Of a stretch of DNA of 64,000 nucleotides, positions 37,976-47,878 are shown piece after piece. The first letter of the stretch is position 1; each line of letters starts with the position of its first letter. This stretch comes from Escherichia coli. Lineage in GTDB: Bacteria; Pseudomonadota; Gammaproteobacteria; Enterobacterales; Enterobacteriaceae. The DNA lies in assembly GCF_017348835.2 (NCBI RefSeq), contig NZ_CP071375.1; one strand, written 5' to 3'. The position numbers and the translations under genes were made by a program. The notes beneath the pieces are model-generated. The model worked only from the letters and a program-made list of their open reading frames with translations. It did no database searches and was not told where the DNA came from.

Positions 37976-40900
37976 TCACTGGAAACAAGTAACCAGACCA
38001 GGTTTATTGGCTAACGTGATACAACAATCCTCTGTGCCAGTGCTCTCGTCCATCCCACACCGTTGAGAGGACAAGTAAGGGAAACTTGGCGAAGCTGGCC
38101 ATCCCAGCGAATTAAACACAGTATACAATGTCTCTAACTCATTGTATGTCGGTGCATTTTCTATATTTCCACACTGCTTCGAGATATCCCATTTGCTGGC
38201 ATCAGTAATATGCGCAGAAGCCCAGTTTTCGTAGTTAATAATCGGTGAGGATACGGGATTGGCCCCGGACGGTAATTCAGTTGTCAGTATCGGTCGATGT
38301 AATGTTTTTCCATTCACCACTGCCGTGTCTGCCATATGCCCCCAGAAGTGAGCAGAAGATACATTTGGGCTGGTCAATACGGTGAAAATAGTGTCCATCA
38401 TTGCAGTCACTGTTGGGTATTTATCCAGCGTTACCGTCAGCGGCATTTTATAACCCGGCGTATTGTCCTGACGAACAGTAAAGTTTGCCGTGCCGTCTGC
38501 CCCCGTCACGCCACTGATCTCGTTCCCACTAACCGCCAATAGGGTAGCCGCCCCCGATGATGGCTGGATGGTAATATCATCCATAGCCGCCACATCGCCA
38601 TATAGCGTCGCCCCACTATTACGCGGAGAGGCATCACCACGTCGCAGAGTAAACGCCACATTTGGCACAGGTTTCCCGGCGCTGTCTTTCACCGTCACGG
38701 TGACTGGCATTGCCTCGCCCTTCTTCACTTTCGCCGCCTGAGCGGTGGAGTCAAATGCCGTTGACGTCAGGGTGACGGTAGAAACCGTTGAGTGAGGGTG
38801 CACCAGGCACGCCTGGAAGGCGCGGCTTTTAGATACAGTCACAAGTTGACCTGTGTTGAAGTCAAATGATTCACAAGAATTCGCGCCCGCAGGACAATCT
38901 GCATTTGTCCACCACACATAGCTATTCTGTTTCACCGGCCAGCCAATCTCATTGACGATAGAGCCATTCGGATAGCGGTTGTATAAAGATTGAAGCTCAT
39001 CCAATGATGGATATCGTGCGCTTTCACAAGGGATAAGCTCCGGCAAATATCGCTGGGTAATATATGGCGCAGGCCAGCTTTCATTATTTATATTCACTTT
39101 AGTGAGCGAATAACCGCCACCGCTGGTTGCCCCCATTTCGGCCCACAGTTTCATCCGCTCAAACTGCGTTCCGTCTGCTGAGCTTACCGTTTCTGGCATA
39201 TGTCCCCAGAAGTTGGCTTTTGGCGTATCCGGGCTTGTTACTACGGTATACATCAGGTCGAGATCTGACTTTACCCCTGTTTCACGTGCAAGCGTCGCCG
39301 TAAACGGTGTTACCAGTCCCCAGGTATTATCCTGCGTAGCGGTTAACGTGATGATGCCATTACCGTCCGTAACCCCGTTCCAACTGGCGTTATCATCTGC
39401 AAATTTGTAATTGGCTTGCGCAACCGGCGTCAGGAACTGTAGCAGCAGATCATCTGCTGTCGAGCTTGTGAAATCACTCGGCGTGCGCACTTGTGCTGTC
39501 GCACGCGACAACCTGACGCTTTCATAGGCGGCAGGTCTGCCCGCATCATCCGTGACCTTGATAGTTAACGGTATTGATACGCCCTTCTTCGCCCATGCAG
39601 TCGGACGGTTGTCGTTGATGCCTGTTTTGTCCGCATTCAGCAACGTAGACGTCAACTCAATCGTCGTTGCCTCAGTGTGCGGGTCAACCAGGCAGAGCAT
39701 TAAATTGCCCGCCGTCGATGTTGTACTTTCGTTGCGGATAGCACCGCTCATCAGATCAAGCACCTGGTTATACCATGTTGAACTTGAAACAGTTTGGTCG
39801 TACGCCCACCAGTAATTACCTGCGTTAAGAGGCAGCCCCAAATCAGTTTCCAGCGCACCATTTGGATGGTCGTTGTAAAGCCCCATTAGCTCACTACTGA
39901 AGGGTTGATAAGGCGAAGTGCAGCCTGAGATCGAACTGTTCGCTTTGTTGGTTGCATCTGGTCGCGCCCAGTCTTCATTGTTGATATTAAAGGACGCAGT
40001 CCCGGACAACTCGGCCTTCAACTGTGGTCGCCTGAACGCGACGCCCGCGCTGCTGGTAAAGGTTTCCGGCATATGGCCCCAATAGTTAGCCTTCGGCGTA
40101 TCCGGGCTGGTGATCACTGTGAAAATCGCACTTAAAGATTGTGAAGCAATCGAACCATCGTCCAGTTTCGCCAACAACGGAATACGAACGCCATATCCTT
40201 TATGGAACTGATATACCGTCAACGTCGCCGTTCCGTCAGGCCCGGTAACACCATAAAAATCATCGCCCTCATTAATGATTGGCGTTTGATGATTGGATGA
40301 ATCCGTGATGTAAATTAATTTCGACTGGTAATCTGAACTTACTACATTCTGACGGCTAAGCGTCGCACCATGTTCCAGCAAGAAGGGTACATTACCCAGC
40401 AGATTTCCCTGCGCGTCGCGCGTTGTGACCTTAATGGTGATGAAATCATGATCAACTTCATAATTGGTTTTTGCTTTAACCCCCTGATTACCATCATAAA
40501 CCTGCGCTTGTTCAGAGGTTAACTCAATTGTGGCGACCTTCGGGTTAGCCGTTGTCTGGCAGGTTAAATACCCCCCTTTTGACTCCAGTACACTGCTGGT
40601 GCCATTACTCAGTTGCACACCAAGGTAATTACGATTACTTACGCTGGCACCATCGGCGGTGCTGGTGTCATAGACTTTTAATACTGGCCAGCCGTCTACA
40701 GCATGACCGCCCCAGCTTGTCGATAACGTGGTTAATGCATCTTTGGTCGGGATATTATCTGCGCCACAACCGTTATTTTTCGCATTCTTACTTGCCTGCG
40801 CTTCAGTAAACAGCGCCCAAATTTCGTTATCCTCTTCCGGGCTTTTACGTCCATTGCCGGGAGAACCACTCAGTTCTGAAAACAGGATCGGTCGCTTAAA

Positions 40901-43900
40901 CGTCAATCCTCCCGCTGTGAGTGTTTCTGGCATATGCCCCCACATTTTTGCCTTGTTAGTGTCAGGGCTGGTGACAACGGTAAAAATAGTGTCTAACGAT
41001 GCGTTTTTTGTTGGATCGGAATAGAGCGCAGCGGTAATTGCCGTTTTCGTGCCGTGAGTGTCCGGGCGGGTGATGGTGAGAATTTTGCTACCGTCACTCC
41101 CCGTTAACCCAGCGTATGCACTGGCAGTATCGTTAAGCGACATTTCATCTGACATTCCGGCATCCACCACGACCGGTGAAACGATCCCGTCACCGCTTCC
41201 TGCAATATGCTTTTCATTGCTACGGGTGTAACCATCGCCACGCTTCAGGGTAAAGGGCATTCCCGGCATCGGGTTACCCGCCGTATCTTTCACCGTGACT
41301 TTTACCTGTAGCGTTTCACCCTTTTTCAGTTTCGCTGCATTAAGCGTGCTATTCCACTGTGCCTGATCGACCACTTCCAGCGTAATGGTGCTGGCGGGTG
41401 GGTTAGCGTCCTTCAGGCAGGAGATATAAATTTCCGAGGAACTTGTTTGCACGTTTCCGTTATTCAGCCAAACCGCTGCAAAGTGCGGGACTTTATCGGT
41501 AGGCGTGCTACTCCAGTAAGGCTGGCGCTGAGTCGGCCAACCATGCTCAGTTTGAATCGCGTTATTACTGTTGGCGCGATAGAGCGCATCAAGCTGTGAC
41601 TGGCGTGGCACTTTATTGGCCTCACAACCGCCCACCGCGCTATTTTCGATCTCGGACTGATCGACGCGTAACCAGGTTTCATTATTTTCATCAAAGGGAC
41701 GCCCGGAACCGCTTACCTCCACCGCCAGTTTGGGGCGATTAAATGTAATAGAATCCACAGTTATCGTGTCATCCATGTGCCCCCACATTCTCGCTCCCAT
41801 CACATCCGGGCTGGTGGGAACCGTAAAGATTACATAGTAGTTAATGGTATTCGGCAGAACAGAATTAGGAGGCGTGACAACAAGTCGCGTTCTTAAGCCA
41901 ACGCCTTGTGGCTGCTCAACAACAACGGTTGCCTGCCCCTGTGCGTCTGTAATACCGGAGTAAACCATTGAGGATTGTGAGGTACCGTACTGCGTCCCAT
42001 TCAGGGTTATTGCGCCGTTACTGGGATCGGTAAACCCGGTTGCGCTTTCTTCACGGTCAAGACTGATATCTTTGGTAATAGTAAAAGCCGTGAACGGCAC
42101 CCGCTCGCCATTCAGAGCATTAACTGTGCGCACCGTCATGGTGATTTGTTCACCGACTTTCGCCCGTGCCAGGCTGCCCGAGGTAGTATCACGATCGGTT
42201 GTCACTTCAACCTTCGCCACCATCTCATTACCAGAGCACGAGAGATAGTTTTGTTTAAAACCGCTATAACTGTCGACGTTCCCTGTTCCGAGGTTTACCG
42301 ATGAATGCGTTGTCTGCTCCGCGGCAGTTAAATAGTCCTTTACTGCGGTTGGCCAGCCATACTCAGTCCCGATGATATTGCCAGGGTAAGCCGAATACAG
42401 ACTTTCCAGTGAGATCTCACGCGGTATATGCCCCGTGCCGCATTCTGCCTGCATACTGGTATTTTGATCGAATAACGCCCAGTCTTCGTTATTTTCCCGT
42501 ACTGTGCCTATTTCATGCGTGGTTTCAGCCGCCAGCAGCGGTCGTTTATATAAACTGCCAGCATCAATAATGCCGTGCATGTGGCCCCACATCCGCGCAT
42601 ATTCGCTGTCCGGACTGGTCACCACCGTAAAGACCACATCTTTGGCATCTTCAGCAGTGAAATTACTGCGCATTTTCGCCGTAATATGCGTTTTAACGCC
42701 TGCGCCGTCAGGCTGCGTCAGCAGCAGAGTTGCCTGACCATTGACGTCGGTCATTCCCTCATAATTATGATCATCTACCTTTTGCAGGTTGGTGCCGCCG
42801 GAAATTTGTACCGGATGCGCTTCCCACGCCGGATCGGTTTGATTTTTGCGGTTAACGCCGTCATCGAGATGCAGCGAGAAGTAGTAATAAGCCAGCGGCT
42901 GATTGTTATTTTTTTTATCGGTAATGGTCAGGCGTATCGTAGTGCTGTCACCGACCTCTGCCTTCGCGGCATTTATACTTTCATCAAAGTTACTGGGCGT
43001 GAGCACCAACTCTGGCTCAACATCGGGTTCTGCTTTATCCACACAGCTCACGATATACTTTGTACTGTCTGGTTTTTGCGCTTCGCTGCGGTTAGACACA
43101 TCAGCCGCGTGGTGCTGCCCGGTACTTCCTGCCAGAGATGACCAGTAATAATCACCCTGCATCGGCCAACCGGCGGTCTCCTGAATAGAGTTAGGGATCA
43201 CCGTAGCCAGCGCGCCAAACTGGCGCATGCCAGGCAAAATATCGCAGTGGTTATCTGCGCCACTCCAGGTGAAGGTCGACCAGGTTTCACCGTGATCGTT
43301 CACACTGCCATCTTCGTTATCAACTTCCGCCGCCAATTTCGGACGACTAAAGGTGTAATTCATGGCCGTCAGGGTTTCCGCCATATGGCCCCACATATTG
43401 GCCTGCGGGGCATCCGGGCTGGTGAGTACAGTAAATATCACCGCCGTTTCACTGGTTTGCGAGATGCCAGAAAGGCTGACCACCAGCGGCGTTTTGACAC
43501 CTGGACCATTGGGCTGCGTCACCGTGACGGTAGCTGCGCCATCAGCATTAGTCGTGCCCCGATACTCCGTTGCTGTGGTGGTGAGTTCAGTGGTATCAAG
43601 ATTGACAGGTGAGGTGTTATTCACCACTCCCTGGCGGTTTTCAGCATCTTTTCGTTTGATAACAAAAGGGATATTGCTCGCAATATTACCTTCACAATCT
43701 TGGGTGGTTACGGTTAAGGTGATTGAACCATCGACAGTAGTCTTTGCCGCTTGTAACGTATCGTCATAGCCACTGGCGCTAATTGTCACCAGGTCGCCCT
43801 GGGCGGGAGCAATATTCAGCGTCACTTTATGTTCAGCCAACGGCACCGTCCCCTGATTAGGCACACCAGTTAACGTGTAGAGGTAGAGTAAAGGTAGCGC

Positions 43901-44386
43901 TTCCTGCTCATTGATTCGCGGCCACGCCACCAAAGAACGCCCTGCCAGATTCTGCGCGCAGAAAGAGCGGTCCGGGCGCGGTTGTGGGCTGAGCGGCGTA
44001 TCTGGCGTCGCGGCATCCGTCCACACAAGAGATACAGCAGGAGGCGTCTGGTTTTGCCAGCCTAGCACGGGGGGATTAGAAAAAAGATCGCCTTCAGGAT
44101 CGTGAGGGTTAACCAGAATCATTCTCGCCGCTGTGTCATCAACACTGAATGCGCTGGGTTTTACAGATGCCTGAATGTCGTAGGTTTTGCTCGGATCAAG
44201 CTGAACGCTTCCCTGATAAACGGGTACGCTGGCGCTCTCTGCCCCGGGCACTGTGCCATTGATTGCGTCGGTCGAGATGCCAGTTTGTTGCCACTGGCCA
44301 CCTTTTAATACTGCCCCAACCTGAAAAGAGAGGAAGAGCAGAAAAACCGCCGTTATCGCTTTTATCAGTTTCAAAGTCCCGTCCAT
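37976..44386 (-). CDS. Giant surface-exposed repeat protein (RatA/RatB-like), 2136 aa, seven tandem ~290-aa modules
   Basis: Signal peptide, then seven modules each ending in the signature (I/V)FTV(L/V)TSPD-x5-(M/Y/F)WGHM-x12-16-RP(K/I/Q)L...NNE(D/N)W; position between xseA and the sinI/sinH-like genes, as recalled for the Salmonella CS54 island. Confidence 0.6.
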
Positions 44387-44520
44387 GATTGAAACCTGCC
44401 CGTTTAAAGTTATTTTTTCACTTCAACCCACTTTGCTTAACGCTGGCTAAGCAAAGTGTGCGGAGAAGCACCATTCCCTTGCTGAAATGACCAGATTGTT
44501 GACAAAGTGCGCGTTATTCA

Positions 44521-44620
44521 TGCCGGATGCGGCGTTAACGCCTTATCCGACCTACAAAATCGTGCAAATTCAATACATTGCAGGAACCATGTAGGCCTGA
44601 TAAGCGAAGCACATCAGGCA
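44521..44620. repeat. Pair of inverted REP units (BIME-like)
   Basis: TGCCGGATGCGGCGTTAACGCCTTATCCGACCTAC at 44521-44555 and GTAGGCCTGATAAGCGAAGCACATCAGGCA at 44591-44620. Confidence 0.8.
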
Positions 44621-44676
44621 GTTTTGCCTTTGTCATCAATCTGACCATTCCCTTGCGGGAATGGTGCTGGTAAAGA

Positions 44677-45642
44677 TTATTTTCTCTGGTAATCGATGGA
44701 CAAACCGTAGCCCTGAACACCATCCGCGCCAAGGGTGAGGCCACCTTCGCTGTAGTCGAACGCAGTTTTCGCTTCGGCGTTGGTAACTGGGATAACCAGG
44801 TCGCTGTTGTTGTAGCTCGGGTTGACAATCCCACCGTTGGTACGCAGTTGCAGACTGGTACCGGTAAAGCGCCAGCGGTAGTTGTACTGGCTGGTAACCT
44901 CTTCGCCAGTGTCGTAGGAGCCGTTGCTGTTTTTATCTTTCCACAGCATGACCTGATAAGTGGTATTGGTTTTGAGTTTGGTTTCTTTGCCCAGCAGGTT
45001 GGTGTTAACACCCTGCTCATGAATGACAACTTTAACCGCATCGTCAAATACCGGACCTTCCGGAATATCATCGCTGTCAGAACCACCGCCCGCGTTGGTG
45101 GAGAGGTCTAACAGGATCAGTTGTTCTGCAACGTTAGGATCACCGGTCGTGGTGGTCGGGGTAATTTTCAAACCGATGTAGCGATCGGCATCCGCTGCGG
45201 CAATGGTATAGGTGTCACTGCCCGTTGTACCGATCTCTTTCGGATCACCCCCCGCCTGGTCGCTATAGCTCATCCATTGCAGCGTCGCTTTGGTTGCAGT
45301 GTTGTTGTCGTCAAGGTCGCCCTGGGTATCGCCAATGGCCCAGTTTGCAGTTAACTTGTCACCAATATGAAATTGCTTCTCGCCATCGGTTGAAGCAGAA
45401 CGTCCGCCACGATCAACGGTAATGGACACATGAGATTTATCGGCATCAGTCGTTTCTGACGCGCTACGGGTGATCCACGGCACGGTACCCTGAATCGTTC
45501 CGGTCGTTTGCGTCTCTGACTGCCACTGGCCCGCTCTAAGGTTGCCCTGCCCTTCTGCCATGGCGGCAGGCACTGCGCAGTACCCCGCTAAAGCCAGCGC
45601 CAGCGCGACTTTAGTCATCGGTCGCTTTAAATAGTGTTTCAT
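44677..45642 (-). CDS. SinI-like secreted/outer-membrane-associated protein
   Basis: 321-aa ORF (signal peptide MTKVALALALAGYCAVPAAMA if started at the internal Met) whose C-terminal ~100 aa are homologous to the C-terminus of the adjacent 726-aa protein. Confidence 0.55.
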   Translation of the reverse strand: MKHYLKRPMTKVALALALAGYCAVPAAMAEGQGNLRAGQWQSETQTTGTIQGTVPWITRSASETTDADKSHVSITVDRGGRSASTDGEKQFHIGDKLTANWAIGDTQGDLDDNNTATKATLQWMSYSDQAGGDPKEIGTTGSDTYTIAAADADRYIGLKITPTTTTGDPNVAEQLILLDLSTNAGGGSDSDDIPEGPVFDDAVKVVIHEQGVNTNLLGKETKLKTNTTYQVMLWKDKNSNGSYDTGEEVTSQYNYRWRFTGTSLQLRTNGGIVNPSYNNSDLVIPVTNAEAKTAFDYSEGGLTLGADGVQGYGLSIDYQRK

Positions 45643-45697
45643 TCAACTCTCTCCTTGATTAATTTCCAGCGGCTGGCCGATCGGCCATTACGCCGAT

Positions 45698-47878
45698 CTA
45701 GTGCTTGCTGTAAACCACACGTAATCCATACCCCTGCACGCCATCCTCTTTTTGGGCACCAAATTTCTGTACCGCTTCCTCGTTAGTGGCAGGGATGACA
45801 ATATCTTCATTACTGGTATTCGATTGCGCACCGGTGTAGCCATTGACGCTGTGTCCGGTAAATTCCCACTGGTAGTCGTATTGCGCCATTTCTTCTTCCG
45901 TCAGTTTTTCCGACTGCTGGAAAACGCCATCTTTGTTGACATCGCGCCACAGGACAAAACGATAGGCGTTATCAACAGGCAAATGCTCTTTCTCATTGCC
46001 GATAAGATTGATGGGGTTAGTCGCGGATACACGGTAGATAAAGGCATTAACATCGTTGCCCCCCGCGCCGAGGAAAGTCACATCGACATAGTTACTATCG
46101 TCATACGGTGCGGCCTTTGCTTTCCAGCGGAAGGTGCCGGGCAAAGTACTGGAGAGGGTGACGGTTCCTTTCTCTTTATCTTGCTTCGCGATAAAGACGC
46201 ACGGGTTATCGGTCGAGCAGGGTTTATTGGTGAGGGTGACTTTTTTATCCTGAGCATCGTAAAGCTGCGGACTCAGGCCATCTTCCGGCAGCGCATTACC
46301 GTTACGGTCAGTGTCATCACCAAAGCTATCGGTAACATCGAGATCCATCACCACGCCATCGACGCCATCCGCCTGAGCGCTGGCTTCATGACTGTGATTG
46401 TTTTCATCCGGCACATCCGCAATGTTGTTGACGATCAGTTCAATTTTGCGATCCTGCTGAACGGTGATTTCCACCACGCCGGAGTTTTGCCGGTTGCCTT
46501 TTTCATCTTCCAGAGCCAGACGCACGCGCCAGGTATTGAGTTTTTCCTGTTCGGCGGGATCAGAGCTGTACTGCCAGGCTGGCAGCACCAGATTCCAGTG
46601 GTTGTTGTTCCCTTCCGTGAGGGTATTTTCTTTGATAACCGGCATCACCAGAGTACGCGCAGCGTTGTTTCTCGCCTGCCAAGAGGCGACGACAATCTTA
46701 TAGTGATGATTGATTAGCGCATTGATTGTCCACTTACATTTTTCCAGCCCTACCGCAGCTTCGGGGGTGTCCTTGATGACACAATCCGGGTGTTCATTGG
46801 TGGCGTCAGCCTTCAGCCACAACGTAACGTCGAGAGGATCTTTTTCTTTATATTCCAGAACAATAAAATTATTGCGCTCAACAAAGTCATGGCGGCTGCC
46901 CATCAGCGAGTGAGCTGCTTTGACGTTATCGCTATTCAGTTGATCTTTTAGCGGAACACCGAACTGATAGTTAATCGTGGCGTTAACGCTAAGATCACTG
47001 TTATCTCCGGTACCTGCTTTATAATCCGTCCCGACCGTCAGTAACGGAACGGGTTGATAGTTCACGCCAAGCGTCACTGCATAGGGATCTTTTTCTAAAT
47101 TATCGGTGCCGAAGAGCGCCACTTCGTCACCATAATATTGCTCGAAAACAATTTTGCTCCCCAACTGAGGATAAGAAGGAAGCCTGGCTTCCGCCCGGAC
47201 ATCCCAGCCACGTGCGGGGCGTTCTAAATAGAAATCAAAATCTTTTGAATCTTTCCACTCTGAAAGCGGATGATAATAGTTACCAGAAAATTTTAAATAA
47301 TCCGTCCAGGCTTCTGTTCCCAAACCTAAACGGCGATGTCCGCGGGTGAAATCATAATCATAAAATATATTCCCCCCCAGAAGCCATTTATCAAAATTAT
47401 GTCTTACACCTAAACCTATATTACCTATCGTGCGTTCTTCTTTTCGTTGCGCAGAAAACTGACTGAAATAGACTGTGCTCTGATTGTCATACCAGGGGAC
47501 AAAATAGTCGATTGAACTGCCGTCCAGATCGCCACCCTGACCGATGGAAAGGTTAGAGCGAACTTTACCATAAGGAGAAAGCGCACCTTCGATATAAGAC
47601 TGTGCAGATGATGTGATTTGCCCTTGCAGATAGCTTCTCGCCTGGGATTCAAGAGCTTCTGGAGTCAGGTTCTCAAAGCCCTGCTGGGCGGACTCGGTAA
47701 CGTAATTGGCACCACGTTCCTTGAAAGATTTGCCTTTGTTACTTTGTTCCTCTTGTTGAGCCGTTTCGCTTGCCAGATCAGGTAATGAAGATTCGCTTTG
47801 CTTAATATTTATCTCCGGTGCCGCATAAGCAGCACCAGAAATAACGATTAGCGTTATATAGCGAATCCATCGCAGCAT
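45698..47878 (-). CDS. SinH-like intimin/invasin-family outer membrane protein (inverse autotransporter-like)
   Basis: 726-aa ORF with signal peptide; beta-rich N-terminal half (a candidate barrel) and a C-terminal passenger; length and position match Salmonella SinH as recalled. Confidence 0.55.
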   Translation of the reverse strand: MLRWIRYITLIVISGAAYAAPEINIKQSESSLPDLASETAQQEEQSNKGKSFKERGANYVTESAQQGFENLTPEALESQARSYLQGQITSSAQSYIEGALSPYGKVRSNLSIGQGGDLDGSSIDYFVPWYDNQSTVYFSQFSAQRKEERTIGNIGLGVRHNFDKWLLGGNIFYDYDFTRGHRRLGLGTEAWTDYLKFSGNYYHPLSEWKDSKDFDFYLERPARGWDVRAEARLPSYPQLGSKIVFEQYYGDEVALFGTDNLEKDPYAVTLGVNYQPVPLLTVGTDYKAGTGDNSDLSVNATINYQFGVPLKDQLNSDNVKAAHSLMGSRHDFVERNNFIVLEYKEKDPLDVTLWLKADATNEHPDCVIKDTPEAAVGLEKCKWTINALINHHYKIVVASWQARNNAARTLVMPVIKENTLTEGNNNHWNLVLPAWQYSSDPAEQEKLNTWRVRLALEDEKGNRQNSGVVEITVQQDRKIELIVNNIADVPDENNHSHEASAQADGVDGVVMDLDVTDSFGDDTDRNGNALPEDGLSPQLYDAQDKKVTLTNKPCSTDNPCVFIAKQDKEKGTVTLSSTLPGTFRWKAKAAPYDDSNYVDVTFLGAGGNDVNAFIYRVSATNPINLIGNEKEHLPVDNAYRFVLWRDVNKDGVFQQSEKLTEEEMAQYDYQWEFTGHSVNGYTGAQSNTSNEDIVIPATNEEAVQKFGAQKEDGVQGYGLRVVYSKH

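What the first reader, a model, noticed from the sequence alone, without database searches (positions are those of the whole stretch)
44677..47878. The SinI-like and SinH-like proteins share a homologous ~100-aa C-terminal domain
The C-terminus of the 321-aa protein (YQVMLWKDKNSNGSYDTGEEVTSQYNYRWRFTG...DLVIPVTNAEAKTAFDYSEGGLTLGADGVQGYGLSIDYQRK) aligns with that of the 726-aa intimin/invasin-like protein (YRFVLWRDVNKDGVFQQSEKLTEEEMAQYDYQWEFTG...DIVIPATNEEAVQKFGAQKEDGVQGYGLRVVYSKH). This suggests a shared terminal binding or anchoring module and a duplication origin for the small gene.
Basis: seen in the sequence. Interest (0 to 1): 0.4.

Follow-up and report, generated by a model that had tools for sequence, protein, structure and literature searches.

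The report
SinI shares SinH's tip domain
The small secreted protein SinI ends in an old, diverged copy of the outermost domain of its neighbour, the E. coli surface adhesin SinH; the similarity is real but was already described, so the finding is ordinary.

Summary
SinI residues about 200-321 and SinH residues about 607-726 are homologous: BLASTP gives 40% identity and E=3e-17, the profile comparison gives E=1e-22, and the alignment score is 28 SD above shuffled sequences.

The window is the E. coli sinH-sinI-ratA island, between der/yfgJ and xseA. The shared unit is one ~120-residue beta-sandwich. In SinH it is the last, membrane-distal domain ("domain 3"), the proposed receptor-binding domain and the SinH-3 vaccine antigen.

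Nothing else in SinI resembles SinH, so this is a domain duplication, not a duplication of the gene. The duplication is old. In eight genomes from Leminorella to E. coli the two copies are about 37% identical, within a genome as much as between genomes, and no DNA similarity remains.

The domain is rare: 72 hits among 1.84 billion representative proteins. It has no close solved structure, and most copies carry an EF-hand-like loop.

The similarity is already published (Kingsley 2003, as cited by Heinz 2016; Goh 2019), and NCBIfam has a curated SinI family.

I favour a ligand-binding tip over an anchor. The one element shared by all three barrel-less proteins (SinI, RatA, RatB) is a different one: a short N-terminal motif, which I did not find reported.

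The parts
45698..47878 (-). sinH, a 726-aa intimin-like inverse autotransporter
   Evidence: ORF. NCBIfam NF033423 scores 1481 bits against a cut-off of 999. Pfam IAT_beta covers aa 64-337, E=4e-105. PDB invasin and intimin barrels match aa 102-344.
46868..47689 (-). SinH outer-membrane beta-barrel (aa 64-337)
   Evidence: Pfam PF11924. Mean identity is 80% among 8 orthologues, the most conserved part of SinH.
45701..46060 (-). SinH domain 3 (aa ~607-726): the shared C-terminal beta-sandwich and distal tip
   Evidence: Homology. It corresponds to 'SinH-3' (residues 602-724), the proposed receptor-binding domain of PMC9937491. It is the most variable folded part of SinH, at 66% mean identity. 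The EF-hand-like loop W-x-D-x-N-x-D-G-x-F-x-x-x-E is present in 29 of 30 SinH sequences.
44677..45642 (-). sinI, a 321-aa SinI-family autotransporter-associated protein
   Evidence: ORF. NF040711 scores 419.8 bits against a cut-off of 165. The start codon lies 55 nt after the sinH stop, with an AAGGAG ribosome-binding site.
45556..45642 (-). SinI predicted Sec signal peptide (aa 1-29, cleavage after A-M-A)
   Evidence: Read from the sequence: a basic n-region, the hydrophobic stretch VALALALAGYCAV, then AMA followed by E. pLDDT is below 50 in the model. Inferred; no signal-peptide predictor was available.
45475..45540 (-). SinI mature N-terminal motif LRAGQWQSETQTTGTIQGTVPW (aa 35-56), shared with RatA and RatB
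   Evidence: BLASTP against RatA gives E=0.009. hhalign without the signal peptides gives E=8.9e-10, against 1.2e-3 for a reversed control. The motif is present in all SinI-like proteins aligned.
45103..45462 (-). SinI domain 1 (aa ~61-180), a beta-sandwich weakly similar to ZirU
   Evidence: The AF2 model shows a beta-sandwich. NCBIfam ZirU_fam gives E=1.5e-6 but 28.5 bits, below its cut-off of 100. No similarity to SinH.
45046..45102 (-). SinI interdomain linker NAGGGSDSDDIPEGPVF (aa 181-199)
   Evidence: This is the most conserved segment of SinI, at 85% mean identity, with invariant GGG, P194, G196, P197 and V198.
44680..45045 (-). SinI domain 2 (aa ~200-321): the paralogue of SinH domain 3
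37976..44386 (-). ratA-like gene (2136 aa), third gene of the unit: seven BIg21/InvE_AD repeats and no barrel
   Evidence: Pfam and NCBIfam hits. The order sinH-sinI-ratA is conserved in all 7 other loci examined.
44243..44308 (-). RatA mature N-terminal motif [22 protein letters not shown] (aa 27-48)

Best explanation
sinH, sinI and ratA form one conserved unit. SinH is an inverse autotransporter with an N-terminal outer-membrane barrel. Its C-terminal passenger has three beta-sandwich domains, and the last one (D3) sits farthest from the membrane.

SinI is a Sec-exported protein with no barrel and two beta-sandwich domains. Its second domain is an ancient paralogue of SinH D3. That domain was copied once, before these enterobacterial lineages diverged (or before the island spread), and joined to an unrelated ZirU-like N-terminal module. 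The two copies have evolved independently since.

My inference is that the shared domain is a functional tip, not a membrane anchor. It would be a ligand-binding and probably Ca2+-stabilised beta-sandwich. By analogy with ZirT/ZirS/ZirU, SinI would be a SinH-associated partner or exoprotein that presents a second version of the same binding domain at or beyond the cell surface.

Shown here: the homology, its boundaries, its age, the fold class, and the operon conservation. Inferred: export of SinI, dependence on SinH, ligand binding, and Ca2+ binding.
For: Homology and boundaries:
- establish the homology and place it at SinI 200-321 and SinH 607-726.
- hhalign finds no second region of similarity.

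Age of the duplication:
- In 8 genomes SinI-C and SinH-C are 32-45% identical. The within-genome mean is 37.2% and the between-genome mean 37.7%.
- Each paralogue is 48-90% identical to its own orthologues.
- No DNA similarity remains; the best blastn hit has E=0.054.

Operon:
- sinH-sinI-ratA is conserved in Leminorella, Salmonella, Superficieibacter, Citrobacter, E. coli and two metagenomic enterobacteria.
- A more distant locus, L008, encodes an inverse autotransporter ending in this domain, followed by a SinI-like protein.

Tip rather than anchor:
- D3 is the C-terminal, distal domain and the least conserved folded part of SinH (66% against 72-80%).
- Others have proposed it as the receptor-binding domain, and immunisation with it is protective (PMC9937491; PMC12525524).
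- RatA and RatB lack the domain.
- In L008 the same N-terminal module carries a Big/C-type-lectin tail in place of it.

Fold: a confident beta-sandwich model.

Loop: an EF-hand-like D-x-N-x-D-G...E loop is present in 29 of 30 SinH and 59 of 124 SinI sequences.

The partner model follows ZirTSU as described in PMC4943183, PMC6714894 and PMC2270342.
Against: - There is no experimental evidence here, or in the papers I could read, that SinI is secreted, depends on SinH, or binds anything.
- Goh 2019 found that the SinH orthologue IatB mediates biofilm formation without the downstream protein.
- The EF-hand-like loop is degenerate in about half of the SinI sequences, so Ca2+ binding cannot be essential in SinI.
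- The residues invariant in both paralogues (DG-QG-[YF], P-TN-EA) could equally mark a protein-protein interface between SinI and SinH.
Confidence: 0.5

Rival explanations
1. Docking or anchoring module. The two homologous domains pair with each other, so that SinI is held on the tip of SinH at the cell surface, or is recognised by the SinH passenger in the periplasm before export. The shared domain would then be an assembly interface rather than a ligand binder.
For: - The motifs conserved across both paralogues lie in loops and the terminal strand: DGVQGYGL and IP-TN-EA.
- Heinz 2016 proposes that Ig domains of ZirT-like transporters bind their Ig-domain substrates.
- From my memory of Prehna 2012, which I could not read, ZirS, ZirU and ZirT are described as a multiprotein immunoglobulin adhesion system.
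- The two genes are always adjacent.
Against: - RatA and RatB, the other barrel-less proteins of the operon, lack this domain, so it cannot be the general recognition element.
- The element they do share with SinI is the N-terminal motif.
- Within-genome SinI-C/SinH-C pairs are no more alike than between-genome pairs. This shows only that the two are not being homogenised; with 8 pairs, co-variation could not be tested.
Confidence: 0.27
2. Periplasmic helper. SinI stays in the periplasm as a two-Ig-domain chaperone or assembly factor for SinH and/or RatA, using its D3-like domain to mimic or cap the SinH tip during export.
For: - SinI is a ~30-kDa protein with a signal peptide and two beta-sandwich domains.
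- Heinz 2016 notes that periplasmic IgSF proteins chaperone other IgSF proteins.
- The interdomain linker is very highly conserved.
Against: - No PapD-like or other chaperone structure appears among the structural matches.
- The characterised analogues ZirS and ZirU are secreted.
- IatB/SinH functions without the downstream gene.
Confidence: 0.1
3. Recent duplication or ongoing gene conversion between sinH and sinI. This is the literal form of the first reader's 'duplication origin for the small gene'.
For: The genes are adjacent and on the same strand. In-frame SinH::SinI hybrid proteins exist in databases.
Against: - The two copies are about 37% identical in every genome, and no higher within a genome than between genomes.
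- No nucleotide similarity remains.
- Only 120 of SinI's 321 residues are related to SinH.
- The hybrids join SinH at about aa 420-456 to unrelated positions of SinI or RatA. They are deletions, not exchanges between the paralogous domains.
Confidence: 0.02
4. Chance or compositional similarity between two beta-rich secreted proteins.
For: None beyond the modest 40% identity.
Against: E=3e-17, hhalign E=1e-22, z=28 against shuffles, and reciprocal NCBIfam cross-hits.
Confidence: 0.01

Closest known systems
Salmonella CS54-island SinH/SinI (Kingsley et al. 2003, as cited in PMC4943183) and the E. coli orthologues IatB/EcSMS35_2660 (PMC6714894)
   Same: - The same genes in the same chromosomal position: xseA - ratA - sinI - sinH - yfgJ - der.
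- Both proteins pass the NCBIfam cut-offs.
- The SinI-SinH similarity is stated in these papers.
   Different: - This window carries a rare E. coli allele. Only 46 of 5426 complete genomes hold at least 80% of the region, and the common E. coli sinH is about 78-80% identical in DNA.
[quoted passage not shown] Here it is narrowed to the last domain only.
ZirT/ZirS/ZirU of Salmonella: an inverse-autotransporter-like transporter with co-encoded, barrel-less Ig-domain exoproteins
   Same: - An IAT barrel protein followed by small Sec-dependent proteins without a barrel that resemble part of its passenger.
- SinI domain 1 gives a weak ZirU-family hit (E=1.5e-6).
- Published reviews draw the same analogy.
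   Different: - The ZirU hit scores 28.5 bits, far below the family cut-off of 100.
- The shared C-terminal domain was not linked to the Zir proteins by anything I could run.
- Secretion of SinI has not been shown.
- The sin operon also carries giant Rat adhesins.
Intimin/invasin C-terminal receptor-binding domains (C-type-lectin-like D3/D5)
   Same: The same position: the last, distal domain of an inverse-autotransporter passenger, thought to contact the host.
   Different: - A different fold. SinH D3 and SinI D2 are beta-sandwiches with one helix, and no lectin appears among the structural matches.
- Xing 2023 reports TM-scores of only 0.41-0.45 to the intimin and invasin receptor-binding domains.
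SdrD-B / SpaA 'prealbumin-like' Ca2+-binding adhesin repeats
   Same: They share the loop L-W-x-D-x-N-x-D-G-x-Y-D-x-G-E. Multi-repeat SpaA/SdrD_B proteins were pulled in by the domain profile through this stretch.
   Different: - The match covers only part of the profile.
- No Pfam SdrD_B or SpaA hit reaches significance for the SinI/SinH domain itself (SpaA_4 at E=0.15 in 1 of 19 sequences).
- Homology of the whole domain is not established.

Membership tests
SinI family autotransporter-associated protein (NCBIfam NF040711) | Whole-protein score above the curated cut-off (165 bits) | tested here: met
   419.8 bits, E=7e-126, covering aa 7-318.
SinI family autotransporter-associated protein (NCBIfam NF040711) | Encoded immediately downstream of an inverse autotransporter, with no barrel of its own | tested here: met
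   55 nt downstream of sinH. No Pfam barrel domain. The same arrangement occurs in 7 other loci and in L008.
SinH intimin-like inverse autotransporter (NCBIfam NF033423, equivalog) | [quoted passage not shown] | tested here: met
   1481 bits over aa 1-726. PF11924 at E=4e-105. PDB invasin barrel at E=2e-71.
ZirTSU-type 'inverse two-partner' secretion system | An IAT-type barrel protein with co-encoded, signal-peptide-bearing, barrel-less Ig-domain proteins that resemble its passenger | tested here: met
ZirTSU-type 'inverse two-partner' secretion system | Export of the partner depends on the barrel protein | not testable with these tools
   Needs fractionation of wild-type against a sinH deletion strain. 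No paper that I could read reports it for SinI.
ZirU family (NCBIfam NF040485) | Score above the curated cut-off (100 bits) | tested here: not met
   28.5 bits, E=1.5e-6, over SinI aa 61-213 only. This is a distant resemblance, not membership.
EF-hand-like (DxDxDG) Ca2+-binding loop | A D-x-[DN]-x-[DN]-G loop with an acidic residue at position 12 | tested here: met
   SinH has D-V-N-K-D-G-V-F-Q-Q-S-E and SinI has D-K-N-S-N-G-S-Y-D-T-G-E. The pattern occurs in 29 of 30 SinH and 59 of 124 SinI sequences. This is a sequence pattern only; metal binding was not tested.
SdrD_B / SpaA prealbumin-like domain (Pfam PF17210, PF17802) | A significant Pfam match | tested here: not met
   No SdrD_B or SpaA hit. 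SpaA_4 reaches E=0.15 in 1 of 19 members.
Intimin/invasin C-type-lectin-like receptor-binding domain | A C-type-lectin-like fold at the C-terminus | tested here: not met
Bacterial Ig-like (Big_1/Big_2) passenger domains | A Pfam Big-family match or a close structural match | tested here: inconclusive

The most novel reading that the evidence does not exclude
The short motif at the mature N-terminus (consensus L-K-x-G-x-W-Q-x5-T-G-x-I-x-G-T-x-P) is shared by SinI, RatA and RatB, and by distant SinI-like proteins whose C-terminal domains differ. It could be the recognition or docking signal by which a SinH-type inverse autotransporter exports or holds its barrel-less partners. That would make it a counterpart of the TPS domain of classical two-partner secretion. 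The D3-like domain of SinI would then give the complex a second, diverged copy of the SinH tip.
Probability: 0.2. Interest if true: 0.55.

Novelty: already known. Interest (0 to 1): 0.2.

Why it matters
SinH domain 3 is being developed as an ExPEC vaccine antigen (SinH-3; PMC9937491, PMC12525524). A co-transcribed protein that probably leaves the cytoplasm and carries a 37-40% identical copy of that domain bears on antibody cross-reactivity, decoy effects and redundancy of function.

More generally, it is still unresolved how inverse autotransporters could handle separate partner proteins; Heinz 2016 calls this a 'Gordian knot'. Two results here give concrete constructs to test. Only the tip domain is shared between SinI and SinH. 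A different, N-terminal motif is common to all the barrel-less proteins.

The C-terminal similarity itself adds nothing new to the literature.

Tried and rejected
- Whole-gene duplication: rejected. hhalign finds nothing outside the last domain.
- Gene conversion or recent duplication: rejected.
- Pfam assignment of the domain: none significant.
- Homology of the whole RatA N-terminal region to SinI domain 1: not supported. An HMM of the SinI N-module does not hit the Rat proteins, and hhalign supports only the 24-residue motif.
- A profile search with the N-module to find new architectures returned only SinI fragments.
- Kingsley 2003 and Prehna 2012 could not be read. What I say about them comes from Heinz 2016 or from memory, and is marked as such.
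- Lipoprotein reading of the invariant 'AGYC' in the signal peptide: rejected by eye, because Tyr at position -1 does not fit a lipobox. The invariant Cys remains unexplained.
Full report
WHAT IS THERE

The window is E. coli. The region is 100% identical to strain PE164. The minus strand carries, in order: bamB, der, a yfgJ-like zinc-ribbon gene, then a 726-aa ORF (45698-47878), a 321-aa ORF (44677-45642) and a 2136-aa ORF (37976-44386). After these come xseA on the plus strand and guaBA.

- NCBIfam identifies the three ORFs as SinH (1481 bits, cut-off 999), a SinI-family autotransporter-associated protein (419.8 bits, cut-off 165) and a RatA-like repeat adhesin.
- Pfam finds an inverse-autotransporter barrel in SinH (aa 64-337), nothing in SinI, and seven BIg21/InvE_AD repeats in RatA.
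- This is the E. coli counterpart of the Salmonella CS54-island genes, in the same chromosomal position as in Salmonella locus L002.
- The allele is rare. Only 46 of 5426 complete E. coli genomes hold at least 80% of the region. The common sinH allele is about 78-80% identical in DNA.

THE OBSERVATION

The quoted peptides are the true C-termini of the two proteins, and the similarity is highly significant.

- BLASTP aligns SinI 215-320 with SinH 624-725 at 40% identity, E=3e-17.
- Family profiles extend the match to SinI 200-321 and SinH 607-726, at probability 99.5% and E=1e-22.
- The local alignment score is 28 SD above 2000 shuffles.
- Each protein cross-hits the other's NCBIfam model over exactly this stretch.

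WHAT IS AND IS NOT SHARED

The profile comparison finds no second region of similarity. SinI 1-199 is unrelated, at detectable level, to SinH passenger residues 345-606.

AlphaFold2 models show the following:
- The shared unit is a confident beta-sandwich with one short helix (pLDDT 88.7, pTM 0.81).
- Full-length SinI has a disordered signal peptide and N-terminus, then beta-sandwich 1 (about aa 45-180), a Gly/Asp/Pro linker, then beta-sandwich 2, which is the shared domain.

Structural searches against the PDB return only generic Ig, FnIII and macroglobulin domains:
- Foldseek gives nothing at E<=0.001.

Sequence searches find no solved relative and no significant Pfam family.

In SinH the shared unit is the last domain. 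This is the 'Ig-like domain 3' (residues 602-724) that Xing et al. 2023 modelled, proposed as the receptor-binding domain, and used as the SinH-3 vaccine antigen (PMC9937491; PMC12525524).

AGE OF THE DUPLICATION

I fetched seven other loci through exact SinI sequences. They come from Leminorella, Salmonella, Superficieibacter, Citrobacter, a divergent E. coli and two metagenomic enterobacteria. All have sinH-sinI-ratA in the same order.

- Across the eight genomes, SinI-C and SinH-C are 32-45% identical.
- The within-genome mean (37.2%) is no higher than the between-genome mean (37.7%).
- Each paralogue is 48-90% identical to its own orthologues.
- The two coding segments retain no nucleotide similarity (best blastn E=0.054).

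The domain was therefore duplicated once, long ago, and the two copies have not been homogenised. 'Duplication origin for the small gene' is right only for its last 120 codons.

HOW WIDESPREAD

A profile of the domain was searched against 1.84 billion representative proteins. It found only 72 hits at E<=0.001. They fall into three groups:
- Proteins of 290-400 aa with the domain at the C-terminus. Four of the six distant ones I scanned pass the NF040711 cut-off and the other two hit it below the cut-off.
- SinH-like inverse autotransporters of 729-751 aa that end in the domain.
- Large multi-repeat SpaA/SdrD_B-type adhesins. These match only through the loop L-W-x-D-x-N-x-D-G-x-Y-D-x-G-E.

That loop has the spacing of an EF-hand/DxDxDG calcium site. 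It is nearly universal in SinH D3 (29 of 30) and present in about half of the SinI sequences (59 of 124). Calcium binding is an inference from the pattern only.

WHAT IT MOST LIKELY DOES

Three results favour a functional tip over an anchor.

1. In an inverse autotransporter the C-terminal domain is the one farthest from the membrane. This follows from established knowledge of intimin and invasin. SinH D3 is also the least conserved folded part of SinH, at 66% mean identity against 72-80% for the barrel, D1 and D2. That is what one expects of an exposed tip.

2. RatA and RatB are the other barrel-less proteins of the unit, and Heinz 2016 hypothesised that they are substrates of SinH. They do not contain the domain.

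3. In the distant locus L008 an inverse autotransporter ending in this domain is followed by two genes. One encodes a SinI-like protein. The other encodes a protein with the same N-terminal module as SinI but a Big/C-type-lectin tail in place of the shared domain. The N-terminal module is thus the constant part, and the C-terminal domain is interchangeable cargo.

I therefore favour this model at about 0.5: SinI is a ZirS/ZirU-like partner of SinH that displays a diverged second copy of the SinH tip domain.

The main rival, at about 0.27, is that the two homologous domains pair with each other to dock SinI on SinH. The conserved loop motifs (DG-QG-Y, P-TN-EA) fit either model.

A periplasmic-helper role is possible but less likely, at about 0.1. 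None of this has been tested experimentally. Goh 2019 found that the SinH orthologue IatB makes biofilm without the downstream gene.

COMPARISON WITH WHAT IS KNOWN

The similarity between SinI and SinH is in the literature.

- Heinz et al. [quoted passage not shown] 2003)'. They draw the ZirT/ZirS/ZirU analogy (PMC4943183).
- Goh et al. 2019 repeat the analogy for E. coli IatB (PMC6714894).
- NCBI curates a 'SinI family autotransporter-associated protein' model.

The finding is therefore already known. What this analysis adds:
- the exact domain boundaries;
- the restriction of the similarity to the tip domain;
- the age of the paralogy and the absence of gene conversion;
- the rarity of the domain;
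- the EF-hand-like loop.

SinI is not a ZirU-family member (28.5 bits against a cut-off of 100). The domain is not the C-type-lectin tip of intimin or invasin.

SEEN IN PASSING

The most interesting by-product is a short motif directly after the signal peptides:
- SinI: LRAGQWQSETQTTGTIQGTVPW
- Rat[23 protein letters not shown]

The same motif occurs in RatB and, as T-x-x-I-x-G-x-x-P, in every distant SinI-like protein aligned. With the signal peptides removed, hhalign gives E=8.9e-10 over 24 columns, against 1.2e-3 for a reversed control. Heinz 2016 described the Rat N-termini as 'highly divergent', and I found no report of this motif. It is the only element common to all the barrel-less proteins of the operon, which makes it a candidate recognition signal. 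This is a hypothesis, at about 0.2.

Other items:
- The SinI interdomain linker is its most conserved segment.
- In-frame SinH::SinI and SinH::RatA hybrid proteins exist in the databases.
- REP elements lie in the sinI-ratA spacer.

VERDICT

This is a real, statistically solid and ancient domain-level paralogy between SinI and the distal domain of SinH. Interest is low as a finding (0.2). The N-terminal motif is a modest lead worth an experiment.

Noticed in passing
window 45475-45540 (SinI aa 35-56) and 44243-44308 (RatA aa 27-48), minus strand; also RatB in L002 and L001, and L008 4782-5885: A short motif directly after the signal peptide (L-K-x-G-x-W-Q-x5-T-G-x-I-x-G-T-x-P) is shared by SinI, RatA, RatB and distant SinI-like proteins. 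hhalign without the signal peptides gives E=8.9e-10, against 1.2e-3 for a reversed control. It is the only element common to all the barrel-less proteins of the operon, and I found no report of it.
   Followed up: partly
window 45046-45102 (SinI aa 181-199), minus strand: The interdomain 'linker' NAGGGSDSDDIPEGPVF is the most conserved part of SinI: 85% mean identity, against about 60% for the two folded domains, with GGG and P-x-G-P-V invariant. That is unusual for a mere spacer. It could be a processing, metal-binding or docking site.
   Followed up: partly
proteins P0153, P0154, P0157 (SinH::SinI) and P0161, P0162, P0164 (SinH::RatA): Public databases hold in-frame hybrids in which the SinH barrel plus about 100 passenger residues (junctions near aa 420-456) are fused to internal positions of SinI or RatA. 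They could be natural deletions that turn partners into passengers, or assembly artefacts. The recurrent junction region is unexplained.
   Followed up: partly
window 44492-44642 (sinI-ratA spacer): A 150-bp stretch matches more than 5000 E. coli records at about 80-92% identity, including K-12 strains, where no feature is annotated under the match. The sequence contains typical REP/BIME palindromes (GCCTGATG...TATCAGGCCTAC and GTAGGTCGGATAAGGCG...CGCATCCGGCA).
   Followed up: partly
window 45577-45588 (SinI aa 19-22, A-G-Y-C), minus strand: An invariant Cys, together with an invariant A19 and G20 and a nearly invariant Y21, lies inside the SinI signal peptide in all 45 aligned homologues. The context does not fit a lipobox because Tyr is at position -1. 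The signal peptide is also more conserved (67%) than the folded domains.
   Followed up: no
L008 1494-5885 (metagenomic contig): A distant three-gene unit: a 751-aa inverse autotransporter ending in the shared domain, a 290-aa SinI-like protein, and a 367-aa protein with the SinI N-terminal module fused to a Big/C-type-lectin-like tail. The last looks like a miniature Rat-type adhesin.
   Followed up: partly
window 45701-46060 and 44680-45045, minus strand: An EF-hand-like loop (W-x-D-x-N-x-D-G-x-F/Y-x-x-x-E) lies in the shared domain. It is nearly universal in SinH D3 (29 of 30) but degenerate in about half of the SinI sequences (59 of 124 keep it). The same loop pulls SpaA/SdrD_B-type Gram-positive adhesin repeats into the profile search.
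   Followed up: partly
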